A stretch of 64,000 nt of DNA from Planctomycetota bacterium. Its GTDB lineage: Bacteria > Planctomycetota > PLA2. Position numbers and translations under genes: made by a program. Each line of letters opens with the position of its first letter. Positions within the stretch are counted from its first letter, which is position 1. The notes under the pieces were generated by a model. It was given only the letters and a program-made list of their open reading frames with translations, was not told the DNA's origin and did not search any database. Positions 2,769 through 44,929 of this stretch are shown here, piece after piece. Location of the stretch: NCBI GenBank assembly GCA_021776785.1, contig JAJFFF010000044.1, forward strand, positions 282,230 through 346,229, read 5' to 3'.

Positions 2769-2782
2769 TTCCCCGAGTTCCC

Positions 2783-4222: not shown

Positions 4223-4260
4223 TGGTGGTCGCTTGGGGTTCTTGGCGTCGTTGGTCTCGT

Positions 4261-6492: not shown

Positions 6493-6554
6493 GACGAGCG
6501 CGAAGATCCAGCGATGAAACGGCCGGCCGAACGCAGGCCGATTCTCGGACAGGC

Positions 6555-7934: not shown

Positions 7935-8143
7935 GCTTCCATTAACTCCCGCGCTTGCTTATCGACGCCTGGGGAGCGGATTTGAAGCGGGCGGGGGATT
8001 GCGGCCGGCCCTGTCGTCAACGCCAGCCGGGCCGACCCTCACTCCGGCCCAACACGGTCGACATAACTAGCTTTTATTTAATCCGTTACGACCGATCTGG
8101 GGCGCCCGGACATGGAGCGACGCCGATGGGCGGACGTTTGACG

Positions 8144-13561: not shown

Positions 13562-13597
13562 CGCCCACGCTCGTCGAACTACGACGGGCGTTTTTTA
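13562..13597. terminator. Hairpin plus T-run, a putative bidirectional terminator between convergent genes
   Basis: cgcccacgctcgtcgaactacgacgggcg followed by tttttt. It overlaps the stop of the minus-strand regulator. Confidence 0.35.
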
Positions 13598-14073: not shown

Positions 14074-14085
14074 AGTTTGTCTCGT

Positions 14086-14913: not shown

Positions 14914-16360
14914 GACACCCGTTCACCGGTAGCCGGACGGTAAAACATGTGCCGGCGCCAGGCTCACTCTCAACGGTGAAATCGCCGTTGTGATTGCGCA
15001 CGATGTCGTAGGAAAGGCTCAGGCCCAGGCCGGTTCCTTGCCCCACTTCTTTCGTCGTGAAGAAAGGATCAAAAATGCGTGAGAGCGCGTCGGGCGGCAC
15101 ACCGCAGCCATCGTCTCTTACCGAGACGTAAACGTATTCGTCTTCGCACCACGTGCGCAGATGAATGTGGCCGGACTCGTCGATCGCTTGCGCCGCGTTC
15201 ACGAGCAAGTTCATCAGCACCTGGTTGATCTGCCCCGGCATGCAATGCACTTCGGGGATCTCGCCATAGTCGGCCGTAACCTCGGCTTTGTACTTGATCT
15301 CGTTGTGAACGATGTTCAGTGTCGACCGAAGGCCCTCGTTAATGTCAGCGAAGCGGGCCTCGTTCTCGGTCGGGTGCGAGAACCCTTTCAGGTCCATCAC
15401 GATCTTGCGTACCCGTTCCGTGCCTTCCAACGACTCGTCCACGAGCGCCGGCAGATCATCGAGAACGAACTCGATTTTCAGTTCCTTCTTCAAAGCACTC
15501 AGCTCTTCATCCGCGGGATCGACGCGTTGCTCGTAGGCGTCCGTGAGCGTGTTGATCTTTTCGACGTACCGCTGCAATGTGCCGAGATTGGAATGCACAA
15601 ACCCAATCGGGTTGTTGAGCTCGTGCGCAACACCCGCTGCCAACTGTCCGATCGACGCCATCTTCTCGGTTTGCAAAAGGCGACTCTGCGCCGCTTCCAG
15701 CTCGCGCAACGCAGCCTCAAGCTCGGTGTTTTTCTTTTCCTGTTCGGCAGCGCGGTGCGCAAGGTCGCGCGTGCGATCGCGCACCGTCTCCTCCAACTCG
15801 CGGTTGTTGGCGGCTAGCTGCATAAGAAGCTGCATGTTCTCGCGGCGGCGTTGGCCTTCTTTGCTGTGCGAAATCCAAGCTGTCAGTGCGCGGCGCACGC
15901 GTTGGGCAAACTGAAACTCCGTGAACGGCTTGGCGAGATAGTCCCAGCGATCAAGAAGCTCGCCCGGGATCCGCCCCTGAATGCGCTGTTCGACAAGGTG
16001 CCCTTCCCCCGTCATCAGCGTCACTTGAATGTCGGGGTCGATCGCCCACAGGCGTTCGATCGTTTCGATGCCGTCTGGTGCCTTGGGGAAAACCATGTCA
16101 ACCATGACCGCGGCGAGACGCTCGCCGCGCTCGGTCAACTCCTGCAGTTTCGCAATCGCCTGTTCGCCCGACTCCGCGACGTGAATCTCAGGAGCGTGAA
16201 CGGCGAGCGATTCATCGGCGTGCTCCAAGTACAAACGACACAACCGTCGAATGCTCTCTTCGTCGTCCACGATCAGAACGTGTAGTGTTTCGCCCGTCGG
16301 TTGAGTTCCCTCAAGATCACCGGGCAACACGTCCCGCAACTCGTCCAGTGCGGTCGTCAT
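14900..16360 (-). CDS. Hybrid histidine kinase (N-terminal receiver, HisKA, HATPase_c). No TM or sensor domain, so probably cytoplasmic.
   Basis: LHVLIVDDEESIRRL (receiver), VAHELNNPIGFVHSNL (H-box), GQGTGLGLSLSYDIVRNHNGDF (G2 box). Confidence 0.85.
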   Translation of the reverse strand: MTTALDELRDVLPGDLEGTQPTGETLHVLIVDDEESIRRLCRLYLEHADESLAVHAPEIHVAESGEQAIAKLQELTERGERLAAVMVDMVFPKAPDGIETIERLWAIDPDIQVTLMTGEGHLVEQRIQGRIPGELLDRWDYLAKPFTEFQFAQRVRRALTAWISHSKEGQRRRENMQLLMQLAANNRELEETVRDRTRDLAHRAAEQEKKNTELEAALRELEAAQSRLLQTEKMASIGQLAAGVAHELNNPIGFVHSNLGTLQRYVEKINTLTDAYEQRVDPADEELSALKKELKIEFVLDDLPALVDESLEGTERVRKIVMDLKGFSHPTENEARFADINEGLRSTLNIVHNEIKYKAEVTADYGEIPEVHCMPGQINQVLMNLLVNAAQAIDESGHIHLRTWCEDEYVYVSVRDDGCGVPPDALSRIFDPFFTTKEVGQGTGLGLSLSYDIVRNHNGDFTVESEPGAGTCFTVRLPVNGCHESE

Positions 16361-22311: not shown

Positions 22312-23297
22312 AACGCACCGTCATCGTCTTGCCCGGACGCGGCTCGTACACAAAACGCGCCCGCCGCTCGCTCCCGACAGAGCACGCGTGGGTCGCACGC
22401 GCGGACGCACTGCGCGCGGAGTACGGGCTGCCCTCGCTGGTCGAGCTCGACCACGCCGATCGATGGAAGAGCTCCGTCCAACTTCGGCCCGACAACGTGT
22501 CGCCCACGATCTGGTTGATCTCGATGATCGACGCGCACGCCGCGATGCAGGAGCACGAGGCGGTCGCTGTGGCCGGCAATTCAATGGGTTGGTACACCGC
22601 GCTTGCCGTCGCCGGCGTGCTCTCGTTCGACGACGGGTTCCGCCTTGTCCAGGAGATGGCGCTGCTGCAGATGGAGCACAAAGACGGCGGGCAGATTCTC
22701 TACCCGTTGGTCGACGATCAATGGCGCGTCGACCCCCGTCAAGTCGACCGCGTGCAGGCGGTGCTGGCCTCGCGCGACGACGTTTTCGAGTCCATTCGTT
22801 TGGGCGGTTTCGTGGTGCTCGCCGGAACTGAAGACGGCGTGGGCGCTATCCTCGACACGCTGCCCGGCGTGGAGATGGGTCCGAGCGTGTTCCCGGTCCG
22901 ACTGGCGCAACATGGTCCCTATCACACCGCACTGCTCAACGCCGTCGCGCAAAAAGCGCGCGCGCAGTTGTCGCGTTTGCCATTTCGCGCGCCCGATGTC
23001 ACGCTCATTGACGGCACCGGCCGGCGCCACACGCCGGCGTCCGCGGATCCGGTGGCGCTGCGCGATTACACGCTCGGCGATCAGATCACGACGCTGTTCG
23101 ACTTCACAACGTCGATCCGCGTCGCGTACCGCGAGTTCGCGCCTGACTTTTTGACGCTGACCGGCCCCGGCAACACGTTGGGAAGCATCTGCGCGCACGT
23201 AGCGATCGCCAATCGCGTACGGAAGATCGAGTCGCGGCACGAATTTGAAGCCGTTCAGGAAAGCGATTCCCCCCTCCTCTGGTCCATGCGACGCTGA
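22308..23297 (+). CDS. Acyltransferase-domain protein (FabD/malonyl-CoA:ACP transacylase-like)
   Basis: VIVLPGRGSY (compare FabD FPGQGSQ). VAVAGNSMGWYTALAVAGVLSFDDGFRLVQEMALLQ matches the GHSxG nucleophile elbow and downstream helix of FabD (GHSLGEYSALVAAG..SFED..KLV). ATGA overlap with the E1 stop. Confidence 0.65.
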   Translation: MKRTVIVLPGRGSYTKRARRSLPTEHAWVARADALRAEYGLPSLVELDHADRWKSSVQLRPDNVSPTIWLISMIDAHAAMQEHEAVAVAGNSMGWYTALAVAGVLSFDDGFRLVQEMALLQMEHKDGGQILYPLVDDQWRVDPRQVDRVQAVLASRDDVFESIRLGGFVVLAGTEDGVGAILDTLPGVEMGPSVFPVRLAQHGPYHTALLNAVAQKARAQLSRLPFRAPDVTLIDGTGRRHTPASADPVALRDYTLGDQITTLFDFTTSIRVAYREFAPDFLTLTGPGNTLGSICAHVAIANRVRKIESRHEFEAVQESDSPLLWSMRR

Positions 23298-23303
23298 GGC
23301 GCT

Positions 23304-24452
23304 TTGATCGCGCGCCCGCAATCCATCGTCTCGCTCGCGACGAAGTTCTACGTCGCGGCCGCACTCCTCGCGTGGGCTTGGGCGGCGTTTTGGGACGTGT
23401 CGCTCTGGGGCGACCGGAGCCCTTCGACCGACCATCTGCTCGAGGGTCTTTGGACGGGCCTCGGGATCGTCGTGTTTTGCCACTTGGCCGTCGCGATCAT
23501 TCCCGCGTTCCGACGCGCCGGCGAAAAGATGGCGGAACTTCTCGGTCCCGTCGCGCCCCTCCAAGCGATTTACTTGGCGTTGCTTTCCGGCATGGCAGAG
23601 GAGCTCGTGTTTCGCGGCGCACTCTGGGATCAACTCGGACTCATCGGAACATCGGTGTTTTTCGGGCTCTGTCACGTCGTCCCGGTGCGCGGGCTGGCCG
23701 GCTATCCCGTGTTCGCGTTTTTTGCGGGACTGATCTTGGGAGCGCTGCGCGAGTACAGCGGTTCGGTGGGGCCACCGATCGTCGCGCACGTCACGGTCAA
23801 CGCGATCAACCTCGCGTGGATCGGACGCCGCACGCCGCATCGAAGACGTGCGCCAGACGATCCTCCCGACGCGGACGACGACGCGGACGACGAAGCGGAC
23901 GCCGACGCGGCGAGCCCGGAGCGCTCCGACATGCACTTCCCGGACGAGATCGAGATTCCGGATACGTTCCCGATCACGATCTGGCGCTACGACCTCCGCG
24001 TCGAGCTCTCCGGGACGGACCGACAAACGTTGCCACAGTGTTTGGAGCACGAAGAGCTCTCCCTTTTTCGATATGTTCCCCGCGAGGCGGTCTACGACGA
24101 ACTGAGTGACGGACGCTTTGTGTTTTCGCACTCGTTCGACGCGCCGCTCAGCACGTTTCCAGCCGACGTCGCCGCGTTGTCCAGCTACCTATTTGAGCCG
24201 GTCATCGGAATCGAAGTAGCGGAGCGATTCGTCGATGAAAAGACAACCGACGACGTACGCGCGTGGAAGATCGTGGCGCAACGCGGACAGTGGGTCAAAG
24301 TACCGCTGGTCGTCGACCAGCCGGAACCCAATCGCTTCCTCGTCGATCCCGACAACGAAGACGAAGCCGTACTGCGCGCGCAGTGGTCGACGTTTCCGCG
24401 CTGGTTTCAGGACGCGATGCGCTATCGCTACCCGCGACTCCGCGATCTGTAG
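23304..24452 (+). CDS. CPBP-family intramembrane metalloprotease (CAAX protease/Abi) with an acidic linker and a ~200-aa C-terminal soluble domain of unknown function
   Basis: EELVFRGALWDQLG (EExxxR motif), FGLCHV, and PIVAHVTVNA (HxxxN) in a multi-TM N-terminal half. These are followed by DDPPDADDDADDEADADAA and an uncharacterised C-terminal domain. Confidence 0.7.
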   Translation: MIARPQSIVSLATKFYVAAALLAWAWAAFWDVSLWGDRSPSTDHLLEGLWTGLGIVVFCHLAVAIIPAFRRAGEKMAELLGPVAPLQAIYLALLSGMAEELVFRGALWDQLGLIGTSVFFGLCHVVPVRGLAGYPVFAFFAGLILGALREYSGSVGPPIVAHVTVNAINLAWIGRRTPHRRRAPDDPPDADDDADDEADADAASPERSDMHFPDEIEIPDTFPITIWRYDLRVELSGTDRQTLPQCLEHEELSLFRYVPREAVYDELSDGRFVFSHSFDAPLSTFPADVAALSSYLFEPVIGIEVAERFVDEKTTDDVRAWKIVAQRGQWVKVPLVVDQPEPNRFLVDPDNEDEAVLRAQWSTFPRWFQDAMRYRYPRLRDL

Positions 24453-24467: not shown

Positions 24468-25967
24468 CTAGCGACAGGAGTAGGTTTCGTCCGTCAGTGC
24501 GTCTGCGATCACGACAACGCGACGCAAGTGCGGTCCGGTGTCTCCGCCTTCGCCGCCTGCGAGCACCGTGAGGCCGTTGCGATCCACAAAGCCGATGTGC
24601 GCGCCCATCGCGATGGGTAGCTCGACATTGCGCACGGTATAGACGATGGCGTCCGGCAAACCAAACGAACCGGAAGGTAGGTAGTCAACGATCTCGAGCG
24701 AGCGGATCGGCGGAGATCCGGGCTCAGAAATGCGGAGTCCTCCCGCCGCGAGAAAGCGGCGTCCGGTGCCGTCACGCGGCGTCAGAGAAAACGCACCGCG
24801 ACGATCGCGCAAAAGATCTCGCGCGAAAAAGGACCCGTTCGACGAGAAGTCATAGACGACGATTGAGCGTGTGTCACCGCCGACGATGAGGAGTCGGTCC
24901 GCGTCAACCCGGTGCGCTTCCGCGCGAAATCGAATGTCGCCCTCGGGTCGAGACTGGATCTCAAGGCCCGTAAAACGAGCCGCTGTGCTCTCCAAGTTGC
25001 CAACGCCGAAGTACACCTCGAAATCGCCATGCAAAAACTGCACATGCTGGGCCGATGCCACAGGCAACGGGTGCCCGAAATCGGTCCATTCGATCGCGTC
25101 CAGCACCTCCACGCTGTCGAGGCGTTCGCCCGCGGCGTCAAACCCGCCGGACACCATCACCTCCAAGCCGCTGGCGAAAAGGGATGCCGCATGCCAGCGA
25201 CGGGCGGTAAGAAGTTCGGCTGAGGGAGCGAAGTTGCCCGACGCGGGATCAAAAATTTCCGTGGAAGCCAACGGCGCTCCGCCGACCGTGGACACTCCGC
25301 CCACGATCAACACACGACCGTTCGGCAAAAGCGTCAGCGTGTGCTCGGCGCGCGGCACCATCATCTTGGACGTATGCACCGAAAAACTAAGCGTCGCCGG
25401 GTCCCAGATTTCGACCGTATCCGTCGCGTCGGTCTCGTCGATGAACCCGCCGAAAATCATGAACCGCCCATCACGCAGCCGAATACCCCGCGCGAATGCG
25501 CGTCCGACGTTGAGCCGGTCTCCCAGATCAAGGAGCTGATCGGGGCGTACGGTCGGCGTCGCGCTTTCGGTGATGAAACAGATGCGCTGGGCCGCGGCGA
25601 GGGGCGAGCCCGCTGCGCTCGTGACGCCGACACCCACGATGAGCTCGTACTCGGTGTTCGGTTCGAGCGACTCGATCGGCTCGACGCGCGCCGTCGAGGA
25701 GTTAAACGCCTGCGTCTCGACGCGAATCCCAACCGGGGCCCCGCCGAATGGCTGGAGGCGAATGTTGGCCGCCGTGAGCGTGTTCAGGTCCGCGGACTGC
25801 GAAAACGTAATCGCCACGCCGTTCGCGATGCCAGCCGTTGTGTCGCCGTTCTCAGGCACGGTCGCGAACAAGGTGAACCCCGTCGCACCGCCGCCGTCCG
25901 AGCCACCACCACCACCGCCCCCACAGGCGGCAGCGCAGACAAATCCCATGATGAAGACAAATCGCAT
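24468..25967 (-). CDS. Kelch-repeat beta-propeller lipoprotein with an N-terminal Ig-like domain
   Basis: Start at 25967 gives MRFVFIMGFVCAAACGGGGGGGSDGG (lipobox). An Ig-like region (GIANGVAITFSQSADLNTLTAANIRLQ...EPNTEYELIVGVGVTSAAGSPL) is followed by repeated ...DGRxxxxGG...D..E.WDP... Kelch-like blades. Confidence 0.65.
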   Translation of the reverse strand: MRFVFIMGFVCAAACGGGGGGGSDGGGATGFTLFATVPENGDTTAGIANGVAITFSQSADLNTLTAANIRLQPFGGAPVGIRVETQAFNSSTARVEPIESLEPNTEYELIVGVGVTSAAGSPLAAAQRICFITESATPTVRPDQLLDLGDRLNVGRAFARGIRLRDGRFMIFGGFIDETDATDTVEIWDPATLSFSVHTSKMMVPRAEHTLTLLPNGRVLIVGGVSTVGGAPLASTEIFDPASGNFAPSAELLTARRWHAASLFASGLEVMVSGGFDAAGERLDSVEVLDAIEWTDFGHPLPVASAQHVQFLHGDFEVYFGVGNLESTAARFTGLEIQSRPEGDIRFRAEAHRVDADRLLIVGGDTRSIVVYDFSSNGSFFARDLLRDRRGAFSLTPRDGTGRRFLAAGGLRISEPGSPPIRSLEIVDYLPSGSFGLPDAIVYTVRNVELPIAMGAHIGFVDRNGLTVLAGGEGGDTGPHLRRVVVIADALTDETYSCR

Positions 25968-26066
25968 CTTCCCTCGATCTCTCAAACTTGCGGCCCGCCC
26001 GCCCGTTATAACGGATCGCACCCCGCGGGACAGGCTCGAATTCGGACCACACGAGAAGCGAACCCA

Positions 26067-27293
26067 ATGATGTCTACATACCGAACCATTTCCAACCCGG
26101 GCGGAAGGCCGATCAAAGCGTGGACGCATGGCGTTCCGGTCGATGAGAAGGCGATCCAACAGCTCCAAAACGTCGGCCAGCTCCCCATCATCCACCGCTG
26201 GGTCGCGGCGATGCCCGATGTCCATTGGGGAATCGGCGCGACCGTCGGCAGCGTCATTCCGACCGTGAAAGCGATTATCCCCGCGGCCGTCGGCGTCGAC
26301 ATCGGCTGCGGCATGATGGCCGTGCGCACGACGCTATCGGCGTCCGACCTTCCCGACGATCTGCGCGGTATTCGGCACGCGATGGAAAAAGCGGTCCCCC
26401 ACGGGCGCACGGATCGCGGCGGAAAAAACGATCGCGGGTCGTGGTCGAACACACCGGCCGTCGCCGAGAAGCGTTGGAAAAAACTCCGCGCCGGATACAA
26501 GGAAATCACCGAGCGTCACCCGTCCCTCGACCGCGGCAAGACTCTTGAACAACTCGGCACGTTGGGCACCGGCAATCACTTCATCGAAGTCTGCCTCGAC
26601 CAGGAAAACGCCGTGTGGCTCATGCTGCACAGCGGATCGCGCGGCGTCGGCAATCGCATCGGTCAGCACTTCATTCGGTTGGCCAAAAAAGACATGCAGG
26701 GCCATCTGAGCCAGCTTCCCGACGAAGACCTCGCGTATTTCTCGGAGGGCTCGGATCACTTTCATGACTACGTCGCTGCCGTCGATTGGGCGCAGCGATT
26801 TGCGCGGACCAATCGCGAGCTCATGATGGAAGCGACGTTGGCGGCGCTGCAACGGCGCAAAGACCTCCCGAAGTTTCAGGCCGACAAGCTTGCGGTGAAC
26901 TGCCACCACAACTACGTCGCGCAGGAGCACCACTATGGCAAAGACGTCTTCGTGACCCGCAAGGGGGCGGTGAGCGCGGCGGTCGGTGAACTCGGGATCA
27001 TTCCCGGCAGCATGGGCGCGCGCTCCTACATCGTCTCGGGCAAAGGGCACGCGGAGAGTTTTTGCTCGTGCAGCCACGGCGCCGGGCGCGCACTCTCGCG
27101 GACGCAAGCCAAGCGGCAATTCACAGTCGCCGATCACGAACGGGCGACGGCGGGCGTCGAGTGCCGCAAGGATGCCGCCGTCATCGACGAAACGCCGGCC
27201 GCGTATAAGGACATCGAGGCCGTGATGGCCGCACAATCCGATCTCGTCGAGATTCTGTACACGCTCAAGCAGGTCGTGTGCGTAAAGGGGTAG
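26067..27293 (+). CDS. rtcB: RNA-splicing ligase RtcB
   Basis: PDVHWGIGATVGSV, GCGMMAV, GTGNHFIEV and CSHGAGRALSRTQA are the conserved RtcB metal- and GTP-binding blocks. 408 aa from ATG 26067. Confidence 0.9.
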   Translation: MMSTYRTISNPGGRPIKAWTHGVPVDEKAIQQLQNVGQLPIIHRWVAAMPDVHWGIGATVGSVIPTVKAIIPAAVGVDIGCGMMAVRTTLSASDLPDDLRGIRHAMEKAVPHGRTDRGGKNDRGSWSNTPAVAEKRWKKLRAGYKEITERHPSLDRGKTLEQLGTLGTGNHFIEVCLDQENAVWLMLHSGSRGVGNRIGQHFIRLAKKDMQGHLSQLPDEDLAYFSEGSDHFHDYVAAVDWAQRFARTNRELMMEATLAALQRRKDLPKFQADKLAVNCHHNYVAQEHHYGKDVFVTRKGAVSAAVGELGIIPGSMGARSYIVSGKGHAESFCSCSHGAGRALSRTQAKRQFTVADHERATAGVECRKDAAVIDETPAAYKDIEAVMAAQSDLVEILYTLKQVVCVKG

Positions 27294-27410
27294 TTGCCTC
27301 CCTTGGTTTTTGCCGCGCTCGTTGAACCGATGCGGTGACCGCGGGGATCATAAGAATGCTACGGCGAGCAAGACCCCGATTCGTGGGCATCCTCGCCATC
27401 GGCCGCCACA

Positions 27411-30203
27411 ATGAACGACCCGGCTTCTTCTCCTGATGCGCTGCTCGCGCACACCGAATTCGTGCGCGCGCTCGCACGGCGGCTCCTCCGCGACGAGCAC
27501 GGCGCGGAGGACGTCACACAGCAAACGATGCTGGCCGCGCTCGAGTCGCCGCCGCGGGATCACACGAAGTGGCGACCGTGGCTCAGTCGCGTCACCCGCA
27601 ACTTCGCGTTTCGCTCCCGGCGGGATGCGACACGTCGGCGGCGGTGGGAGACGGCCGGTGCAAAACCGATTGATATTCCGTCGCCCCAAGACATCCGCGA
27701 TCGCGAAGCGGCGCGGCGCGACGTCGTCGAGGCGGTGCTGCAGTTGGCAGAGCCGTATCGAACCACCATCATCTTGCGATATTTGGAAGAGTTGCCGCCG
27801 CGGGATGTCGCACGGCGGATGAACGCACCTGTCGAAACGGTGCGTACGCGCACGCGCCGCGCGGTCGAACAACTGCGCAACACGCTGGAACAAGAACCGA
27901 CGCGGGATTGGCGAGCGGGGCTCGCGCTTCTGGCGACGCCCAAAGCATGGGGAGCGATTGCGATGTCCGCAAAATCGAAGTGGATCGGTGCTGCAGTGGG
28001 AGCGCTTTTGCTTGCGCTCATTCCGGTTTGGATGGCCTATCGGCACCAGCCTGGAAGCGGTGACCGCGCCGAACGTACGACGGCCGAGCGGGCCACGCCC
28101 CTCGACACGTCAACGACCGCCCCGCCAACGTCGACATCGGCGTCGACGGACGTGGCCACCGGCATCGAAGGCGTCGTCCGCGGGCCGAGCGGCCCGATCG
28201 CGGACGCGTTCGTGGTGCTTGTGGACGGCGGCGACAAGGTCGCGCGACGACGTACGACCGCGACCGGCCGCTTCGCGTTTAAGCAAACGGGAACGTTTGA
28301 CGTCATCGCCGCGCATCCCGACTACCAGCCCGGTGCCGCGACCGTGACCGCGGAGGGCAAGAGCGCCACACGCGTCGACCTCGTTCTGAAGGCCAGCGAT
28401 CCCATCGCGTTCCGCGTGACCGACGGTTCGACCAAGAGAGTTCTCGACGACGTCGAAGTCTTGGTCATCGTCTCGGGCGACGCTACGAACGCGGCGCTCG
28501 AAACGCTGCTCGCCGAAGGCGGTTTGTGGAAACTGATCCCGCGGCTAAGTGTCTACGACTCGTTGATGGATGCGTTCGCTGGACTGCGCGGGAGCGGTGT
28601 CGTTTACATCCCGCCGATCAAGACGTCAAACGGCGTGGCGCACCTGCGCGGTCTTCTGCCGCGTGGCCGCTTCCAGGCCATCGTCAGCCGACACGGCTAC
28701 GCGCCGCTCCTGGTTACGCGCGACGCCATCGGGGATCAGCTGGACGTCACGCTGCAACCGCAGTCCACGCTGCGCGTCACCGCCCCCAACATCGACGGCC
28801 AACCGGCGGTGGGAGCGTGGTGCGAAGTCAACCGGCCCGGGTTGTTTCTGCCCATGCCGGTCAATCGCGCGCAGTTCGACGAAAACGGTCGCGTCGAGTT
28901 CGGCGAGCTCAGTGCCGGGCTGTATGAGGTCATCGTGTCGCGCGACGGCACGTGGGCGCTGGGCGCAAAGGCTCCCAACGCCGACAGTCAGGGCCGAGTC
29001 TCGGTCGGACGCAACGCGACCGCCATCCTTGCGCAGCGCCGCGTCGAGCTGGCCCCAAATCAAACCCACACAGTTCACTTCGGCGGCCCGGAAACCGGTC
29101 GGATCGTCGGCACGATCGCGGCCGGCGATGGCGGCGCGATGATCAACAAGGTGTGGCAAGTGCGGCTGCGACGAGATGACAACGACGTCGCGACAACCAA
29201 CGCCAAAGACGGAAAGTTCGTCTTCGAGAGCGTGGCGCCTGGTTCGTACCGTGTTGTCGCCACCGCATTGGCGAGCGGCGCGAGCGTGACGACCGACGTG
29301 GCGGTGCGTGCGGGGTCGGGCGATACCGTTGTCTCGTTGCGCGCCGAGTCCGGCGGCGTGCGCGGCTCGGTGCGAGGTCGCAACGGTCAACCGTTGCCGG
29401 GAGCGCGCATGCTGATTCTCCGCTATGACGTAGCCCGCACACTGGCACGTCAAGACCCGCGCGGAACCAACGAAGTGTTGTCGCTTCTCTCGCGTGGTTT
29501 TGAGAGCGATCGCAACGGTCGGTTTGAGCGGCCCATGACGGCGGGTCACTACGTCGTTTTTGCGGCAAACGACGGATCCGCGGATTTTCGCGAGGTGCAC
29601 ATCAAAGCAAACGCGCAGACCGAGGTCGCGCTCGATCTGAGTCCGGCCCGTGTCTTCCCGGTCGCGCTCGAGCTCGTTGATCGGGACAAACCCGTCGCGG
29701 GCCACATCTTTCTCCGCGGTTATCTCGGTGGATTCGTGCTCGCGTTTCTCCTGGACGAGGACGCCATGGCTCCCGACGCCAAGCCGATCACCGCGCGGCG
29801 CTATCGACTGCCGAAGGGGCGCTACTTGCTCAACGTTATGGCGCCCGGCCGCGCGCCGATCCTCCAACTTCCGATTCACACGACCGGCGCGTACTCGCTT
29901 CGCATACCCGTCGCCCGCGGCGTGTCGGCAACGCTCACGCTGACCGAAAACGACGCGCCCTTGCGCCACGTCGACCTCGCCCTGCAAACGGCGCTGGGAA
30001 CGACCGTCCATCGCGCGGGCCACCCCGCCGCGCTGTTCGCGCGCAGCCACGGCTGGCGTACCGACAACGCCGGTACGCTTGTGATCCCTTGCCTGCTGCC
30101 CGGCCGCTACGTGCTTCTCCGCCAGGACCGAAAGATCGCATCATTTCGCGTCACCGACGAGCCCCTGACGACTCGGATCGCCCTGGCCGCTCCGCCACGC
30201 TAG
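27411..30203 (+). CDS. ECF (sigma-70 group IV) sigma factor fused in-frame to a transmembrane anti-sigma-like segment and a ~700-aa extracytoplasmic region with CarboxypepD_reg-like beta-sandwich repeats
   Basis: N-terminal 170 aa: EDVTQQTMLAAL (region 2) and RYLEELPPRDVARRMNAPVETVRTRTRRAVEQLR (region 4 HTH). Then the TM helix WIGAAVGALLLALIPVWMAY. Then IEGVVRGPSGPIADAFVVLVDG...GRFAF and further repeats. A single uninterrupted 930-aa ORF. Confidence 0.7.
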   Translation: MNDPASSPDALLAHTEFVRALARRLLRDEHGAEDVTQQTMLAALESPPRDHTKWRPWLSRVTRNFAFRSRRDATRRRRWETAGAKPIDIPSPQDIRDREAARRDVVEAVLQLAEPYRTTIILRYLEELPPRDVARRMNAPVETVRTRTRRAVEQLRNTLEQEPTRDWRAGLALLATPKAWGAIAMSAKSKWIGAAVGALLLALIPVWMAYRHQPGSGDRAERTTAERATPLDTSTTAPPTSTSASTDVATGIEGVVRGPSGPIADAFVVLVDGGDKVARRRTTATGRFAFKQTGTFDVIAAHPDYQPGAATVTAEGKSATRVDLVLKASDPIAFRVTDGSTKRVLDDVEVLVIVSGDATNAALETLLAEGGLWKLIPRLSVYDSLMDAFAGLRGSGVVYIPPIKTSNGVAHLRGLLPRGRFQAIVSRHGYAPLLVTRDAIGDQLDVTLQPQSTLRVTAPNIDGQPAVGAWCEVNRPGLFLPMPVNRAQFDENGRVEFGELSAGLYEVIVSRDGTWALGAKAPNADSQGRVSVGRNATAILAQRRVELAPNQTHTVHFGGPETGRIVGTIAAGDGGAMINKVWQVRLRRDDNDVATTNAKDGKFVFESVAPGSYRVVATALASGASVTTDVAVRAGSGDTVVSLRAESGGVRGSVRGRNGQPLPGARMLILRYDVARTLARQDPRGTNEVLSLLSRGFESDRNGRFERPMTAGHYVVFAANDGSADFREVHIKANAQTEVALDLSPARVFPVALELVDRDKPVAGHIFLRGYLGGFVLAFLLDEDAMAPDAKPITARRYRLPKGRYLLNVMAPGRAPILQLPIHTTGAYSLRIPVARGVSATLTLTENDAPLRHVDLALQTALGTTVHRAGHPAALFARSHGWRTDNAGTLVIPCLLPGRYVLLRQDRKIASFRVTDEPLTTRIALAAPPR

Positions 30204-30566: not shown

Positions 30567-31127
30567 ATGGAAGCAACCTTTTACACCTACTGCGCATGGG
30601 CGGGCGGAGTCCTGATCGTGCTTCAGGTCGGCCTCCAGCTGTTCGGCATCTTCGATGGCGACGCGGATATCAACACCGACGTGGACACGGACGGACTCGG
30701 CGACACCGACGGTCACGGAGACTTGTTCTTCGGCATCTTGTCGTTCAAAGCGCTGACCGCGTTCACCGCATTCTTCGGCCTCACCGGCCTGTCGCTGATG
30801 GACGGCGACACGACGCGGGCCGCCCGCATCTCCATTTCAATCGGCGTCGGGTTCATTTCGATGCTCATCATCGCGTGGTTGATGCGCGGCCTGCACCGCC
30901 TGGGTTCGGACGGCTCGGTCAACGTCCAACGCGCGCTCGGGCGCGCGGGCACTGTCTACCTCCGTATTCCGGGCGCCGGCTCCGGCCGTGGCAAAGTCAC
31001 GATGGAACTCGGCGGACGCACGATGGAGTTAGAAGCGTTCACCGACGAGTCCGAGATTGCAACCGGAGAGCGCGTCTCCGTCGTGGCCGTGGACGACGGC
31101 GGGGTCGTGAAGGTGGCGCGCGCCTAG
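30567..31127 (+). CDS. NfeD-like membrane protein (YqiJ/YuaF-type flotillin partner) with a C-terminal OB-fold
   Basis: Start ATG 30567 follows GGAGGG. An acidic loop DGDADINTDVDTDGLGDTDGHGD lies between TM helices. The C-terminal GRGKVTMELGGRTMELEAFTDESEIATGERVSVVAVDDGGVVKV is an NfeD OB-fold. It sits immediately upstream of the flotillin gene. Confidence 0.65.
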   Translation: MEATFYTYCAWAGGVLIVLQVGLQLFGIFDGDADINTDVDTDGLGDTDGHGDLFFGILSFKALTAFTAFFGLTGLSLMDGDTTRAARISISIGVGFISMLIIAWLMRGLHRLGSDGSVNVQRALGRAGTVYLRIPGAGSGRGKVTMELGGRTMELEAFTDESEIATGERVSVVAVDDGGVVKVARA

Positions 31128-31180
31128 CCGCGAAACAAACAGCGGCGCCTCTACAACGAAGGCGTCGAGACTAGAGGGAA

Positions 31181-32812
31181 GTGGGAATCATGAATACATT
31201 GCTTATCGGCGCCATGAAGGATCCGATGCTGATCGCGATCGTGCTTGGCGCGCTTGTAGTCTTCAGCTTCATCATCTTGTTGGTCAAGCGCTACCGGCGC
31301 TGCCCGTCCAACAAGATCTTGGTCATCTACGGGAAGGTCGGCGGAGAACGTTCCGCCAACTGCGTGCACGGTGGCGGCGCGTTTGTATGGCCGGTCATCC
31401 AAGACTACGAGTACTTAGACCTTGAGCCCATCCAGATTGAGATACCGCTCACGGGCGCCCTATCGCTGGAAAACATCCGCGTCAACGTGCCGTCCGTGTT
31501 TACCGTTGCCATCGGTACCGAGCCGCCGATCATGCAAAACGCTGCGGTTCGCTTGCTGAACCTCACGTCGAAAGACATTGAGACGCAAGCGCGCGACATC
31601 ATCTTCGGTCAGCTCCGCCAAGTCATCGCGTCGATGCAGATTGAAGACATCAACCGCGACCGCGACGCTTTCCTAAACTCGATTCAGTCGTCGCTGGAGG
31701 GCGAGCTTCGCAAGATTGGCCTCGTGCTTATCAATGTGAACATCACCGACATCACAGACGACTCTGGCTACATCGAAGCCATCGGTCGGAAGGCTGCCGC
31801 GACGGCGGTGCAACAGGCCGAAATCGACGTGGCGGTCCAGCACAAGAAGGGCGCCATCGGTGTCGCCCAAGCCAATCGAGAAAAAGACATCGACGTGTCG
31901 GTCGCGGTCAAAGAACGTGAAATCGGAACGAAAGAGGCCGACAAGGAGCGCGTGATTCAAGTCGCCAACCTCGACAAGGAGTCGCGGGTCGGTGAGGAGA
32001 TCGCGAACGCGTCCCGCGACGCGCAGATCGCCGACGCCGAACGCTCGCGCCGCGTTGCCATCGCCGAAGCGAATGCGACGGCCGTCGAGGGCGAGAACAT
32101 CGCGCAGGCCAAGATCGCGCAAGCCAACGCGACGCTCGCGGTCGAACGCGCGAACGCGTACCAGCAAGGGGAAACGCGCAAGCGCGTCGCCGAAGCCGCG
32201 GTCCTCCAGGCGCAGTACGACGCGCAAGCGGAAGCCGCGCGCGCGGAACTGGCCAAGGTCGAAGCGGAGAAGATGGCCGAGCTCGTGGCGGTCGCCAACG
32301 CGGAGAAGGCCAAGATGGTCGTCGACGCGGAAGCCGAGAAAGAAAAGCGCCGCATCGAGGCCGAGGGTGAAGCCGCCGCGATCTACGCGAAGCTCGAAGC
32401 GGAAGCGCGCGGCCAATTCGAAATCCTGCAGAAAAAAGGTCTGGGTTTCGCAGAGATCGTCAACGCTTGCGGCGACCCTCAAGCGGCTTTCCAGATGATG
32501 ATGATCGAGCACTTGGACAAACTGTCGGAGACGGCCGCCAACGCGATCAGCAACATCAAGTTCGACAAGATCGTGGTTTGGGACGGCGGCCCCGGCTCCA
32601 ACGGAACCGGAAAAGGCGCCACCTCGAACTTTCTCAACGGACTGGCCGGCTCGCTCCCGCCGATGATGCACATGATGCGCGATATCGGAGGCGTCCAGAT
32701 GCCGGAGTACTTCGCAAAATTCGTGGAGCAAAAAGAAGAAATCGAGCGCGACGCGAAAGACAAGCCGACCAAGCGCAAGAACACCGGCGACGACAGCGCA
32801 CCGAGCGCATAG
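31181..32812 (+). CDS. Flotillin-family SPFH/band-7 protein (FloT/YuaG-like)
   Basis: N-terminal TM segment, SPFH core (ILVIYGKVGGERS...VPSVFTVAIG...) and a long Ala/Glu-rich coiled-coil (EAEKMAELVAVANAEKAKMVVDAEAEKEKRRIEAEGEAAAIYAKLEAEARGQ). ATG at 31190 is an alternative start. Confidence 0.85.
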   Translation: MGIMNTLLIGAMKDPMLIAIVLGALVVFSFIILLVKRYRRCPSNKILVIYGKVGGERSANCVHGGGAFVWPVIQDYEYLDLEPIQIEIPLTGALSLENIRVNVPSVFTVAIGTEPPIMQNAAVRLLNLTSKDIETQARDIIFGQLRQVIASMQIEDINRDRDAFLNSIQSSLEGELRKIGLVLINVNITDITDDSGYIEAIGRKAAATAVQQAEIDVAVQHKKGAIGVAQANREKDIDVSVAVKEREIGTKEADKERVIQVANLDKESRVGEEIANASRDAQIADAERSRRVAIAEANATAVEGENIAQAKIAQANATLAVERANAYQQGETRKRVAEAAVLQAQYDAQAEAARAELAKVEAEKMAELVAVANAEKAKMVVDAEAEKEKRRIEAEGEAAAIYAKLEAEARGQFEILQKKGLGFAEIVNACGDPQAAFQMMMIEHLDKLSETAANAISNIKFDKIVVWDGGPGSNGTGKGATSNFLNGLAGSLPPMMHMMRDIGGVQMPEYFAKFVEQKEEIERDAKDKPTKRKNTGDDSAPSA

Positions 32813-33563: not shown

Positions 33564-35804
33564 ATGAAACTTAAACTGAGAAAGCGCGAACGCGGGACGA
33601 TGCTCGTCGTCATCCTCTTCATCGCCAGCGCCATTGCAGCTCTAGCTGCGATGAGCTCTGGTCGTGTGGTAGCGGAGATGAACCAGCAGCGCACCCTCGA
33701 AGCGGAAACGCAAGCGTACAACCAGGCCTACGCCCAGCTTCAGATGGCTCTCAACGTTGTGAACAACAGCGCTTACGACGATGAGCTACGCAATCTCGAA
33801 CTGGCAGCGGCCATAAACGGCGACAACGGCGGCACCGCCGCCGGCGAAGACCAAGACGAAGTTCCGCTCTGGATGCAGGACCCGTCCGGCGTCACACACG
33901 GAATTGTTCGCGGCACAACCGTAAAGGTCTATCGCGGTCGCGATTACCTGAAGCGATTGCAGCTGCTGAAGGGCCAGACGGTCACGGAGCAGGATCCGAC
34001 CGACGTTTCGCGCTCTTACTTTGTAATCGAAGCGACGGGCCGCGAGAACTCGACGGTCCGCATGGTGTCGGCGCTGGTGCGCGAGAACGAGCCGTTCAGC
34101 TCCTTCGTGTTCTTCCAGAACCGTCACACACTCGGCGTCTCGGGCGCACCGCGCGGTCTCATCCACACCAACGATGAGCTCGCGTTCTACTTCCCGGACG
34201 GCGAGTACACAGACGGCGTCTCGGCCGTCAACGGTTTCGCTTACGAAGCCGGCGCGACCGAGGCCAACACCAACGTTCTCGACGGCAACCCGGACGCCAA
34301 ATCCATCGATCTCGACAGTGTCGATTTCGACAAGCTCAAGGGAGCTGCGGATCTGTTCGAGGGCACGGAGGGTCTCGATGCTGAGATCCGCCTGATTGCC
34401 GACGGCCGCGTTCGCATCCGCGAATACACGAAACCGCGTTGGGAAGAAGAAGATCGCGACTACACGTACACGGCGGTCATCGGCTACGAAACACGCACGG
34501 TGACCGAGACGCAGAGCGTTCAGGTCGGCACCGTGGAGGAGGAGCGCACGCGCCAAGTCCAGGTCGGCACGGAAACTGAAACCTACAACGTGACCGTCCA
34601 GGTCCAGGTGGGCACAGAAATCGAAACCTACACGGTTACGATCAACGAGCAGACCGGCACGGAGACTGTCGAACGTACGCGCGAAGTCCCGGTGTACGAG
34701 ACACGTATGGTGACGTGCACGCGCCGTGTGCGCGTGTTTGTTCCGTACGATGACGGTAGCGGCGGCACGGCCGTCGGTGGCGGCGCGGACGGCGTCCCCG
34801 GCGAATGGGTCTGGGTCGACGAAGAGTACGAGTGCGAAGAGACGTTCATCGCACGCTACGAGACCGAGACCTACACCGAAGAGGTGCCGGTCTACACCGA
34901 GCGCACCGAAGAGCGGACCCGCGAGGTTCCGATCTACGAGGACCGCGTCGAAGAGCGCACGCGTGAGGTCCCGATCTTTGAAGACGAGACCTACACCGTC
35001 GAAGTTCCTGTGTACGAAGACCAAGAGGTCGAGGTGGAGCGTGACTTCCCCATCACGGAAGAGCGCACCATCGAGTACACCGAGTGGGTCTACTACCCGC
35101 CGGAACGTCAGAGCACGACCTACAAAGACATCCCGGAGTCCGGCGGCACCGTCTACATCGACGGCCGCATCACGCGACTCTACGGCCAGCTCAAGGGTCG
35201 CCTCACGATCGTCGGTAACGAGCGCACTCGGATCACCGGCAACATTCAGTACGTCGATGGCGAAGGCGATACGGCCATGAAAAACGGCACGACGTATAGC
35301 GAGGCGTATGAGCGCAACCCTGACTATCAGGGCAGCAGCGTACTCGGCGTGATCTCGCGCGAAGACATCGTCTTCACAAGCAACATGTCGGGCTCGTCGG
35401 AAGTCAACGCCACGCTACTCGCGGTCAACGGCCGCGTCGGCATCGATGGTTTCCAGATCGATGAGAGTGGCGAGCCGATCAAGAACCACTATCACGGCAT
35501 GGAGTACGAAGAGCAGGTTGTCGAGTGGGGTTACGACTCCAGCTCGTACCGCAACCGTACGTTCCGCAAGGATTCACTCCGCCGCTTGGGTGGGATCGTC
35601 TCGAACGACCGCATCTTGGAGACGTTCATCGGCTCGCGCAACGACGGAACCGCGTATGTGGATTCTGGGTTCAAGCGCGGCGCGATGCGATACGACTTCA
35701 ACCTCTTGTTCAACCCTCCGCCCAACTTCGTAAACGTCCCCCGCCCCGTGGTGACGTCGATCGCGCCGGTTTACTTCGTGCGCAACGAGGCGGACGAAAG
35801 CTAA
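33564..35804 (+). CDS. PilX-N-like (type IV pilus minor pilin/pseudopilin-type) N-terminus fused to a large extracellular protein with Glu/Thr/Tyr/Val-rich tandem repeats
   Basis: KRERGTMLVVILFIASAIAALAAMS resembles the PilX_N segment (rqrGvaLivvLill...). The middle region has degenerate repeats ETYTVEVPVYE / ERTREVPIYED / TETETYNVTVQVQVGTE. The upstream 250 bp is unusually AT-rich for this genome. Confidence 0.6.
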   Translation: MKLKLRKRERGTMLVVILFIASAIAALAAMSSGRVVAEMNQQRTLEAETQAYNQAYAQLQMALNVVNNSAYDDELRNLELAAAINGDNGGTAAGEDQDEVPLWMQDPSGVTHGIVRGTTVKVYRGRDYLKRLQLLKGQTVTEQDPTDVSRSYFVIEATGRENSTVRMVSALVRENEPFSSFVFFQNRHTLGVSGAPRGLIHTNDELAFYFPDGEYTDGVSAVNGFAYEAGATEANTNVLDGNPDAKSIDLDSVDFDKLKGAADLFEGTEGLDAEIRLIADGRVRIREYTKPRWEEEDRDYTYTAVIGYETRTVTETQSVQVGTVEEERTRQVQVGTETETYNVTVQVQVGTEIETYTVTINEQTGTETVERTREVPVYETRMVTCTRRVRVFVPYDDGSGGTAVGGGADGVPGEWVWVDEEYECEETFIARYETETYTEEVPVYTERTEERTREVPIYEDRVEERTREVPIFEDETYTVEVPVYEDQEVEVERDFPITEERTIEYTEWVYYPPERQSTTYKDIPESGGTVYIDGRITRLYGQLKGRLTIVGNERTRITGNIQYVDGEGDTAMKNGTTYSEAYERNPDYQGSSVLGVISREDIVFTSNMSGSSEVNATLLAVNGRVGIDGFQIDESGEPIKNHYHGMEYEEQVVEWGYDSSSYRNRTFRKDSLRRLGGIVSNDRILETFIGSRNDGTAYVDSGFKRGAMRYDFNLLFNPPPNFVNVPRPVVTSIAPVYFVRNEADES

Positions 35805-44927: not shown

Positions 44928-44929
44928 AA

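What the first reader, a model, noticed from the sequence alone, without database searches (positions are those of the whole stretch)
27411..30203. 930-aa single-chain ECF sigma factor, transmembrane segment and extracytoplasmic CarboxypepD_reg-repeat protein
Sigma regions 2 and 4 (about 170 aa) continue without a stop into a TM helix and about 700 aa of periplasmic/extracellular beta-sandwich repeats. ECF sigma factors fused to their own membrane-spanning anti-sigma-like and sensor regions are rare and mechanistically interesting, because activation presumably requires proteolytic release. The 474-aa antisense ORF on the opposite strand is probably a GC artefact.
Basis: partly seen in the sequence, partly recalled or inferred. 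Interest (0 to 1): 0.55.

Follow-up and report, generated by a model that had tools for sequence, protein, structure and literature searches.

The report
Membrane-tethered ECF sigma factor, Planctomycetota family
This is a real 930-residue protein that joins a stress-type sigma factor, through one membrane helix, to seven beta-sandwich domains outside the cytoplasm; it belongs to a large uncharacterised Planctomycetota family that has no recognisable anti-sigma domain and carries a conserved internal start-codon signal that may give a second, sigma-less product.

Summary
ORF 27411-30203 (+) is intact and in one frame. It encodes sigma2 and sigma4, a 25-residue linker, one TM helix, a disordered Ala/Pro/Thr stalk and seven prealbumin-like (CarboxypepD_reg) beta-sandwich domains. 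It is not a frameshift artefact. More than 100 protein clusters and about 50 species-representative loci share the architecture, and nearly all are Planctomycetota.

- Such fusions are common in this lineage, not rare.
- No anti-sigma domain is present.
- No protease or other partner gene is conserved nearby.

New findings:
- A family promoter, TGAACC-N14-(C/G)GGGAT, lies just upstream, which suggests autoregulation.
- The linker carries a conserved A-W-x-x-A-L-x-P-L motif.
- The same ectodomain also occurs as stand-alone, sigma-less, signal-anchored proteins.
- A conserved Shine-Dalgarno-like GGAG, made with the rare GGA glycine codon, lies 8-10 nt before a conserved in-frame ATG (27963) just ahead of the TM helix. 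This suggests a second, sigma-less product.

The most likely mechanism is a membrane-held pro-sigma released by regulated intramembrane proteolysis, as in IutY. This is inferred, not shown. I rate it a new variant of a known kind, of moderate interest.

The parts
27285..27312 (+). Terminator-like hairpin plus T-run that ends the upstream rtcB gene, separating it from the sigma gene
   Evidence: stem 27285-27304, tail GGTTTTTGCC
27323..27328 (+). -35-like element TGAACC of the family-specific ECF-type promoter
   Evidence: TGAACC occurs on the coding strand within 100 nt of the start in 19/56 family loci, 0 on the reverse strand, shuffles mean 0.8 (max 5). It is the only intergenic full-motif copy in the 64-kb window.
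27343..27348 (+). -10-like element GGGGAT, 14 nt after TGAACC. The same (C/G)GGGAT is present in orthologue loci L004 and L006.
27411..30203 (+). Complete CDS, 930 aa: membrane-tethered ECF sigma factor
27432..27653 (+). Sigma region 2 (aa 8-81)
27684..27893 (+). Sigma region 4 (aa 92-161)
27906..27932 (+). Conserved linker motif A-W167-x-x-A-L171-x-P-L (W in 88/108, L171 in 94/108). AlphaFold2 predicts a short helix here with low confidence.
27949..27954 (+). In-frame Shine-Dalgarno-like GGGGAG, made by W180 and G181 (rare GGA codon), 8 nt before ATG185
   Evidence: G181 is conserved in 91/108. Codons at this Gly: GGA 18, GGG 6, GGT 3, GGC 0 of 27, against a background of GGC 49-55% and GGA 13% (binomial p 4e-10).
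27963..27965 (+). Conserved internal in-frame ATG (M185), a candidate second start that would give a 746-aa sigma-less signal-anchored product
   Evidence: Position 185 is M 54, V 24, L 10 of 108. An SD-like tetramer lies upstream in 14/21 loci, against 29/254 for other in-frame ATGs (Fisher p 3.6e-8). L004 has GTG at the aligned codon.
27966..28040 (+). Basic juxtamembrane motif (SAKSK) and the single type II TM helix (hydrophobic core aa 191-210)
   Evidence: Net charge is +0.97 before and -0.10 after the TM across the family.
28041..28148 (+). Disordered Ala/Pro/Thr/Ser-rich extracytoplasmic stalk (aa 211-246), the candidate site-1 cleavage region
28158..30185 (+). Seven tandem prealbumin/CarboxypepD_reg-like beta-sandwich domains: aa 250-326, 330-448, 450-556, 563-645, 647-742, 749-833, 838-925
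28626..30050 (-). 474-aa antisense shadow ORF, not a gene
30567..32812 (+). Downstream NfeD-like gene (weak Pfam hit, E 0.019) and flotillin/Band_7 gene. They are possibly co-transcribed, since no terminator-like site follows the sigma gene. The synteny is shared only with the closest relative, L004.

Best explanation
What it is (confidence about 0.95). The gene encodes a genuine single-chain, membrane-tethered ECF sigma factor of a Planctomycetota-specific family. Its parts, from the N terminus, are:
- cytoplasmic sigma2 and sigma4;
- a short linker with a conserved AWxxALxPL motif;
- one N-in/C-out TM helix;
- a disordered Ala/Pro-rich stalk;
- seven beta-sandwich domains outside the cytoplasm.

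How it most likely works (confidence about 0.45, inferred). The full-length protein is a pro-sigma held at the membrane. An event acting on the ectodomain exposes the juxtamembrane stalk to a site-1 protease. A site-2 protease then cuts the type II TM helix. The freed sigma domain, about 185-200 aa, joins RNA polymerase and transcribes from TGAACC-N14-(C/G)GGGAT promoters, including its own, which gives positive autoregulation.

There is no separate anti-sigma factor and no fused anti-sigma domain, so inhibition would come from the tether itself or from the conserved linker motif.
For: Shown by tool results:
- The ORF is intact and conserved end to end.
- The sigma2/sigma4 residues typical of functional ECFs are nearly invariant across the family: D34, Q37, W57, L58, R75/76, T143, V144, R147, R150.
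- The closest solved relatives are SigE, SigW and SigH.
- 104/108 relatives have a TM helix a median of 43 aa after sigma4. The charge bias indicates N-in/C-out, and the 40 aa after the TM are 21.5% Ala and 14.4% Pro.
- AlphaFold2 gives the domain plan. The ectodomain matches only tandem Ig/prealbumin arrays such as pilins, SdrD B repeats and the Bacillus anthracis TIE protein.
- Sigma-less homologues of the same ectodomain begin with a Sec-type signal anchor, which supports export of the ectodomain.
- An ECF-type promoter motif is conserved directly upstream in 19/56 loci, against 0.8 expected. It is the only intergenic copy in the window.
- No conserved neighbouring regulator was found.

From published work:
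- The fused sigma/anti-sigma protein IutY is activated by Prc plus RseP (PMC8999054, PMC7593790).
- The same mechanism is predicted for ECF48/52/53 (PMC8999054).
Against: - No cleavage has been observed and no protease gene is linked. None of the 47 window genes is one.
- There is no anti-sigma domain, so how the tethered form is kept inactive is unexplained. AlphaFold2 gives pLDDT about 40 for the linker.
- The ectodomain has no recognisable ligand-binding or enzymatic domain.
- The same ectodomain functions without a sigma domain in related proteins. It therefore need not be a dedicated sensor.
- The -10-like element, GGGAT, differs from the usual ECF CGT-type -10, and no transcription start has been mapped.
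Confidence: 0.5

Rival explanations
1. Two products from one gene. The conserved internal SD-like GGAG and ATG185 (GTG in some relatives) start translation of a sigma-less, signal-anchored 746-aa envelope protein, which is the main product. The full-length sigma fusion is a minor isoform that reports the fate of that protein (cleavage, turnover or assembly) and feeds back on the shared promoter. This is compatible with proteolytic release, but it changes what the system senses.
For: - Position 185 is M/V/L in 88 of 97 aligned residues, and G181 is conserved in 91/108 although the linker is predicted disordered.
- An SD-like tetramer lies at -5..-16 in 14/21 loci, against 11.4% for other in-frame ATGs (p 3.6e-8). 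The Gly codon is GGA 18/27 and GGC 0/27, against a background of 13% and 49-55%.
- The aligned codon in L004 is GTG preceded by GGA GCC.
- Stand-alone sigma-less homologues start at the equivalent position, and their upstream genes are not sigma factors.
- Neighbouring genes with independently called starts (NfeD-like, flotillin) use similar SD spacing.
- The annotated start at 27411 has no SD.
Against: - There is no expression data.
- About 12 of 32 family ORFs with DNA lack the G-x-x-x-M site.
- The signal could be a relic of the fusion event, or a hydrophobic-residue preference combined with a translational pause element.
- SD use in this organism appears patchy.
Confidence: 0.3
2. Signalling without proteolysis. 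The sigma factor stays tethered. Either it works at the membrane like ToxR or CadC, or the conserved AWxxALxPL linker masks sigma4/sigma2 and is released by a conformational change passed through the TM helix.
For: - The linker motif is as conserved as core sigma residues: W 88/108, L171 94/108.
- No protease is linked to the gene.
- ECF41/42-type extensions regulate by intramolecular contacts (PMC7826278, PMC8999054).
Against: - AlphaFold2 does not dock the linker confidently; pLDDT is about 40.
- The linker is only about 25 residues, and a disordered 35-aa stalk lies between the TM helix and the first folded domain. Both are poorly suited to passing a conformational signal.
- I know of no precedent for a sigma factor working in holoenzyme while membrane-anchored (my own knowledge).
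Confidence: 0.12
3. A largely neutral fusion. A duplicated sigma2-sigma4 module landed upstream of an existing signal-anchored envelope-protein gene, the model that Pinto & da Fonseca proposed for Planctomycetes. The ectodomain is not a sensor and the sigma part is constitutively sequestered or decaying.
For: - Sigma-less and sigma-fused ectodomain orthologues are interleaved in a rough NJ tree.
- Family members carry varied ectodomains, such as FGE-sulfatase, HEAT or different repeat numbers.
- The insertion model is described in PMC7671368.
Against: - The sigma residues, the linker motif and the upstream ECF-type promoter are all conserved over more than 100 clusters at 24-39% identity.
- Nearly all of the closest sigma relatives are fused; only 3 of 59 are short.
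- Both points argue for selection on the fused state.
Confidence: 0.07
4. Sequencing or assembly artefact. A frameshift has merged a normal sigma gene with a downstream anti-sigma gene.
For: None found. One relative, P0264, does look frameshifted.
Against: - An identical protein is found on an independent Logan assembly.
- Homology is colinear across the junction.
- The architecture is shared by more than 100 clusters from many projects.
- The coding-frame signal is continuous.
Confidence: 0.01

Closest known systems
IutY of Pseudomonas putida (ECF243 subset), a fused sigma/anti-sigma factor of cell-surface signalling
   Same: A single chain with an N-terminal ECF sigma, one TM helix and a periplasmic C-terminal part. 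Activation is by site-1 (Prc) and site-2 (RseP) proteolysis, and the truncated protein is constitutively active (PMC8999054, PMC7593790). This is the best mechanistic model for the window protein.
   Different: IutY contains a FecR-type anti-sigma domain and a periplasmic domain that talks to a TonB-dependent receptor. The window protein has neither, has a seven-domain beta-sandwich ectodomain, and is not next to a receptor gene.
Actinobacterial ECF52 (SCO4117), ECF48 and ECF53
   Same: ECF sigma factors with long C-terminal extensions that hold one or two TM helices and an extracytoplasmic part, carbohydrate-binding in SCO4117. Activation by proteolysis is predicted (PMC8999054).
   Different: These carry a zinc-finger (ZAS) anti-sigma domain before the TM helix. 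No zf-HC2 or other anti-sigma domain is detected here, and only about 25-30 residues separate sigma4 from the TM. The phylum and the ectodomain fold also differ.
Planctomycetal ECF groups with C-terminal extensions (ECF01-Gob, ECF57)
   Same: The same phylum, large C-terminal extensions and several paralogues per genome (PMC4937300, PMC7826278, PMC8999054, PMC7671368).
   Different: ECF57 is described as having WD40-like repeats and two conserved cysteines that link sigma2 and sigma4 (PMC8999054). Here 86/108 members have no Cys in the sigma part, and the repeats are CarboxypepD_reg. From memory only, ECF01-Gob is Gemmata-specific with WD40 repeats.
Pro-sigma-K / SpoIVFB of Bacillus subtilis, and eukaryotic SREBP/ATF6
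   Same: A transcription factor that is itself the membrane-associated substrate of a site-2-type intramembrane protease (PMC6242693 for sigma-K; SREBP/ATF6 from my own knowledge).
   Different: Pro-sigma-K has a short N-terminal pro-sequence and no ectodomain, and it is a group 3 sigma factor, not an ECF.
RsgI anti-sigma-I factors of Clostridium thermocellum
   Same: A single-pass membrane protein with modular extracellular beta-sandwich or carbohydrate-binding domains that signals by proteolysis: autoproteolysis followed by intramembrane cleavage (PMC10328401).
   Different: RsgI is a separate anti-sigma protein with an N-terminal anti-sigma domain, and its sigma-I partner is a different sigma class.

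Membership tests
ECF (group 4) sigma-70 family | Only regions sigma2 and sigma4, with scores above the curated thresholds | tested here: met
   Sigma70_r2 38.9 bits (cutoff 24), Sigma70_r4_2 39.7 bits (cutoff 25.7), TIGR02937 67 bits (cutoff 42.9). No sigma3 or sigma1 hit. The best PDB matches are SigE, SigW and SigH.
ECF (group 4) sigma-70 family | A group-specific promoter with an AAC-containing -35 element upstream of its own gene (autoregulation) | tested here: inconclusive
   TGAACC-N14-(C/G)GGGAT is conserved upstream in 19/56 loci (0.8 expected) and at 27323-27348 in the window. The -35 fits, the -10 is atypical, and no transcription start or in vitro data exist.
Any named NCBIfam ECF subfamily or equivalog (SigE-fam_strep, SigW, RpoE, Rhodopirellula/Verrucomicrobium Sig-70_gvs1 and others) | A score at or above the model's curated cutoff | tested here: not met
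   The best is TIGR02983 at 63.5 bits against 141.55. TIGR02989 scores 39.2 against 124.55. All others are far below their cutoffs.
Fused sigma/anti-sigma ECFs (IutY-type ECF243; ECF48/52/53) | A recognisable anti-sigma domain (FecR N-terminal or zf-HC2/ZAS) between sigma4 and the TM helix | tested here: not met
   No such Pfam or NCBIfam hit even at E <= 1. Sigma4 ends near aa 161 and the TM helix starts at aa 186-191. The family median from R156 to the TM is 43 aa. Linker pLDDT is about 40.
Fused sigma/anti-sigma ECFs (IutY-type ECF243; ECF48/52/53) | A TM helix followed by an extracytoplasmic C-terminal domain | tested here: met
   A single TM helix is present in 104/108 members with an N-in charge bias. 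Sigma-less homologues of the ectodomain start with a signal anchor.
Fused sigma/anti-sigma ECFs (IutY-type ECF243; ECF48/52/53) | Activation by site-1 plus site-2 proteolysis | not testable with these tools
   This needs biochemistry or genetics. No protease gene is linked in the window or in related loci.
ECF57 (planctomycetal, C-terminal extension) | WD40-like repeats in the extension and two conserved cysteines in sigma2 and sigma4 (PMC8999054) | tested here: not met
   No WD40 hit. The window protein has no Cys in aa 1-165, and 86/108 relatives have none.
ECF01-Gob / numbered groups of ECF classification 2.0 | A match to the group HMM of the ECF Hub | not testable with these tools
   The group models and supplementary group descriptions are not held. 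No accessible paper links CarboxypepD_reg to a sigma factor.
CarboxypepD_reg / prealbumin-like beta-sandwich repeats (PF13620) | A Pfam score above the gathering threshold, and the fold | tested here: met
   101.8 bits against 32.3, with 4 stretches. AlphaFold2 models seven beta-sandwich domains. Foldseek matches tandem Ig/prealbumin arrays.

The most novel reading that the evidence does not exclude
The gene is a self-contained two-isoform circuit. A conserved internal ribosome-binding site and start codon (GGGGAG at 27949-27954, ATG at 27963) produce a sigma-less envelope protein. Translation from the first ATG (27411) adds a sigma factor to a fraction of the copies. Proteolysis or turnover of the envelope protein then releases sigma from the tagged copies. 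The released sigma re-induces the gene from its own TGAACC promoter. In this reading the cell monitors the state of a structural envelope protein by fusing the sigma factor to it, with no anti-sigma factor.
Probability: 0.25. Interest if true: 0.75.

Novelty: new variant of a known kind. Interest (0 to 1): 0.5.

Why it matters
ECF sigma factors are among the major bacterial signalling systems. How the many ECFs with fused membrane-spanning extensions are switched on is known experimentally for essentially one protein, IutY.

This family differs in ways that raise specific questions:
- It has no anti-sigma domain, so what keeps a tethered sigma silent is open.
- It is abundant in a poorly studied phylum that is rich in ECFs.
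- It comes with a predicted promoter motif, which makes regulon prediction possible.
- It shows nucleotide-level evidence for an internal start. If real, that would be an unusual way to couple an envelope protein to its own transcriptional feedback.

A cultured organism, Engelhardtia mirabilis, carries a family member (P0092), so the predictions could be tested.

Tried and rejected
- Frameshift or assembly artefact: rejected.
- Fused anti-sigma domain: none detected.
- ECF57 membership: rejected, because the family has no WD40 repeats and no conserved cysteines.
- Linked site-1 or site-2 protease or anti-sigma gene. All 47 window genes were scanned. Only an S9 peptidase lies 6.6 kb downstream, and it is not conserved in the syntenic locus L004.
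- Conserved gene neighbourhood. Only L004 shares synteny (Kelch, Rtc, sigma, NfeD-like, flotillin). About 80 other loci do not.
- Paralogues in the window: none.
- Split sigma plus membrane-protein versions. The three short sigma relatives (two examined, L048 and L054) have no such neighbour. The sigma-less ectodomain genes have no sigma gene upstream.
- Searches that gave little:
  - The ectodomain-only word-index search found only the query itself.
  - The N-terminal-only search returned mostly contig fragments.
  - The first genome scan failed because the alignment had no conserved stretch.
  - The afdb50 fold library was unavailable.
  - Jogler 2012, Wiegand 2020 and the supplements of the ECF classification paper are not held.
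  - A de novo dyad search of the upstream regions gave only GC-rich noise until single 7-mers were examined.
  - Rfam and tRNA scans of the window found nothing.
Full report
**1. Observation**

- Pfam finds Sigma70_r2 (aa 13-76), Sigma70_r4_2 (aa 103-155) and four stretches of CarboxypepD_reg (101.8 bits, cutoff 32.3).
- NCBIfam's general ECF model TIGR02937 scores 67 bits against a cutoff of 42.9. No named ECF subfamily model comes near its own cutoff.
- There is one strongly hydrophobic segment, aa 191-210.
- The coding signal (high GC3, low GC2) stays in the same frame on both sides of the sigma-to-TM junction. The DNA at 27930-27960 has no homopolymer run.

**2. Not an artefact, and not rare**

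- A protein search returns 108 cluster representatives with E <= 1e-5. All are 537-1594 aa; 105 have sigma-domain hits and 98 also CarboxypepD_reg. The named ones are all Planctomycetota, including the cultured Engelhardtia mirabilis.
- BLASTP against P0003 is colinear over aa 11-925, straight through the junction (36% identity, E 2e-130).
- The identical protein occurs on an independent assembly.
- In one genome per species (GTDB representatives), the 59 closest sigma domains are all in Planctomycetota MAGs. About 50 of them are long ORFs (600-1380 aa) with a hydrophobic helix near residue 190-230, and only three are short. More distant hits from other phyla are ordinary ECFs of 170-236 aa. 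Several MAGs hold two or three copies.
- The fusion is therefore the normal state of this sigma lineage.

**3. Anatomy**

AlphaFold2 with a 74-sequence alignment gives mean pLDDT 82 and pTM 0.62. The model has these parts:
- sigma2, aa 8-81, and sigma4, aa 92-161, both at high confidence;
- a low-confidence linker, aa 162-185, with a short helix at 167-175;
- a TM helix, aa 186-210;
- a disordered segment, aa 211-246;
- seven beta-sandwich domains: 250-326, 330-448 (with a helical insert), 450-556, 563-645, 647-742 (with a helical insert), 749-833 and 838-925.

Foldseek against the PDB matches only tandem Ig/prealbumin arrays for the ectodomain (the Bacillus anthracis TIE protein, Gram-positive pilins, SdrD B repeats, alpha-2-macroglobulin MG domains). 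The N terminus matches M. tuberculosis SigE. No ligand-binding or catalytic domain is recognisable.

Family statistics:
- 104 of 108 members have the TM helix.
- The distance from the end of sigma4 (R156) to the TM start has a median of 43 aa (10th-90th percentile 32-54).
- Net charge is +0.97 in the 8 residues before the TM and -0.10 after it, which indicates N-in/C-out.
- The 40 residues after the TM are 21.5% Ala, 14.4% Pro, 9% Ser and 7.7% Thr.
- The linker carries a conserved motif, A-W167-x-x-A170-L171-x-P173-L174 (W in 88/108, L171 in 94/108). This is as conserved as the core sigma residues.

There is no room for a classical anti-sigma domain, and none is detected.

**4. Surroundings**

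- Upstream lies rtcB (26073-27293), which ends in a terminator-like hairpin at 27285-27304 followed by a T-run.
- Downstream on the same strand are an NfeD-like gene (30567-31127, weak Pfam hit), a flotillin/Band_7 gene (31181-32812) and a MOSC gene. No terminator-like site follows the sigma gene.
- This neighbourhood is shared only with the closest relative, L004, which has rtcA in place of rtcB. The loci of P0005 and of the Engelhardtia protein, and about 80 further loci, are unrelated.
- None of the 47 predicted window genes is an S2P, PDZ or Prc protease or an anti-sigma factor.
- The system therefore looks self-contained.

**5. Promoter**

- The hexamer TGAACC lies on the coding strand within 100 nt of the start codon in 19 of 56 family loci. 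It never occurs on the opposite strand. Shuffles give a mean of 0.8 and a maximum of 5 in 1000, and the next-best hexamer of the same composition occurs 8 times.
- Aligned on TGAACC, the sites share G/TT just after it and a (C)GG(C/G)(A/G)(T/A) element about 14 nt downstream.
- The window and its two closest orthologue loci all read TTGAACCG-N13-(C/G)GGGAT.
- In the window the elements are at 27323-27328 and 27343-27348. This is the only intergenic full-motif copy in the 64 kb.
- This is the expected signature of an autoregulated ECF and argues that the sigma part is functional. In most relatives the motif lies 36-46 nt before the start codon, which implies very short leaders.

**6. The ectodomain also exists without sigma**

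- An exhaustive HMMER search with aa 245-930 finds colinear, full-length relatives of two kinds. Sigma-fused proteins of about 920-950 aa match from residue 255-300 onward. Proteins of 725-790 aa match from residue 70-100 onward, and their N termini are plain signal anchors (MRRLAIPLVAAALLG..., MDKKAGLLIVV..., MRKRLLLLGLL...).
- For two of the shorter proteins, the upstream gene is unrelated to sigma factors. They are genuine stand-alone envelope proteins.
- This independently supports export of the ectodomain. It also fits the published idea that planctomycetal extensions arose when a duplicated sigma module captured a neighbouring gene (PMC7671368).
- In a rough NJ tree the two kinds are interleaved.

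**7. An internal start signal**

- Just before the basic juxtamembrane motif, the fused proteins keep a Met (M185 here; M 54, V 24, L 10 of 108). Four residues earlier they keep a Gly (G181, 91/108), even though this linker is predicted to be disordered.
- Of 30 family ORFs with DNA, 21 have this Met. An SD-like tetramer (GGAG, GAGG or AGGA) lies 5-16 nt upstream in 14 of those 21. The rate is 29 of 254 for all other in-frame ATGs of the same ORFs (Fisher p 3.6e-8).
- The conserved Gly is encoded by GGA 18 times, GGG 6, GGT 3 and GGC 0 of 27. GGC makes up 49-55% and GGA 13% of Gly codons elsewhere in these genes, including in the same dipeptide contexts (binomial p 4e-10 for the GGA excess, 1e-8 for the absence of GGC).
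- In the window the sequence is tgg-GGA-GCG-att-gcg-ATG. That gives GGGGAG at 27949-27954, 8 nt before ATG 27963.
- In L004 the aligned codon is GTG, preceded by GGA-GCC.
- Neighbouring genes with independently called starts (NfeD-like, flotillin) use similar SD spacing. The annotated start at 27411 has no SD.
- The constraint is at the nucleotide level, so the simplest reading is a functional internal initiation site that gives a 746-aa sigma-less product with the same architecture as the stand-alone homologues.
- A relic of the fusion event or a pause element cannot be excluded. About a third of family ORFs lack the site.

**8. Mechanism**

Shown here:
- a functional-looking ECF core;
- the tether and its topology;
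- the disordered stalk;
- the absence of a partner gene;
- a conserved promoter upstream of the gene itself.

Inferred: the protein is a pro-sigma released by site-1 cleavage in the stalk or ectodomain, followed by site-2 cleavage of the type II TM helix. The experimentally studied precedent is IutY, which needs Prc and RseP, and the same is predicted for ECF48/52/53 (PMC8999054, PMC7593790).

Unexplained:
- what keeps the tethered form inactive without an anti-sigma domain, with the AWxxALxPL motif as the obvious candidate;
- what the seven-domain ectodomain detects.

If the internal start is used, the sigma-tagged copies could simply report the proteolytic fate of the untagged envelope protein and feed back on the shared promoter.

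**9. Comparison with known systems, and novelty**

- Fused sigma/TM proteins are a known kind, and large, varied C-terminal extensions are known in Planctomycetes (PMC7671368, PMC7826278, PMC8999054, PMC4937300).
- This family fails the defining feature of the IutY and ECF52-type fusions, because it has no anti-sigma domain. It also fails that of ECF57, because it has no WD40 repeats and no conserved cysteines.
- No accessible paper describes an ECF with a CarboxypepD_reg extension. The ECF Hub models could not be consulted.
- I therefore rate it a new variant of a known kind.

**10. Verdict**

- The architecture itself would not surprise an ECF specialist.
- The features that give it moderate interest (0.5) are the missing anti-sigma domain, the conserved linker motif, the promoter motif, the sigma-less twins and the codon-level evidence for an internal start.

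Noticed in passing
window 26073-27293 vs L004 2834-3835: The window and its closest syntenic relative have the same gene order: Kelch/Big_5 protein, Rtc gene, sigma fusion, NfeD-like, flotillin, 746-aa protein. The gene just upstream of the sigma fusion differs, however. It is RtcB (RNA ligase) in the window and RtcA (RNA cyclase) in L004.
   Followed up: partly
window 30567-32812: An NfeD-like/flotillin gene pair lies directly downstream with no terminator-like site after the sigma gene. From my own knowledge, NfeD/flotillin operons belong to the ECF sigma-W regulon in Bacillus subtilis. The adjacency is shared only with L004.
   Followed up: partly
about 20 of the 108 family proteins, e.g. 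P0011 aa 188-206 and 211-229: A second, moderately hydrophobic stretch lies just before the TM helix, after the AWxxAL motif. If it spanned the membrane the topology would flip. It is more likely a peripheral or re-entrant helix.
   Followed up: no
L088 3000-5965: One stand-alone sigma-less ectodomain gene (P0123) is followed by a 462-aa protein with no Pfam hit and a PDZ_6/DUF6288 protein. The latter is a possible periplasmic protease-adaptor partner.
   Followed up: no
P0264 (257 aa, from a 680-kb contig): This family member turns into Gly/Arg-rich sequence right after the AWxxAL motif. It looks like a frameshifted pseudogene or an assembly error.
   Followed up: no
window 25341-27293 (+) and 24468-26225 (-): The mechanical ORF for rtcB is over-extended by about 240 codons and overlaps the divergent Kelch/Big_5 gene. 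The Pfam RtcB match begins near 26160, so the real start is near 26073.
   Followed up: partly
window 1067-9298 (-): A polysaccharide synthesis and export cluster: CpsB/CapC phosphatase, Poly_export/SLBB (Wza-like), NAD epimerase/dehydratase, Glycos_transf_4 fused to an Epimerase_2-like part, Bac_transf priming transferase and a methyltransferase.
   Followed up: no
window 13579-16360 (-): Two stand-alone response-regulator receiver proteins and a hybrid receiver/histidine kinase lie in a row.
   Followed up: no
window 42591-46066 (+): A VIT-VWA protein (778 aa) is followed by a second VWA protein. This is a BatA/B-like or inter-alpha-trypsin-inhibitor-like pair.
   Followed up: no
window 22581-24131 (-), 33564-35804 (+), 54683-56296 (-), 11727-13547 (+): Four large ORFs (516-746 aa) have a strong coding signal but no Pfam family. 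The 746-aa one is conserved next to the flotillin gene in L004 (57% identity).
   Followed up: no
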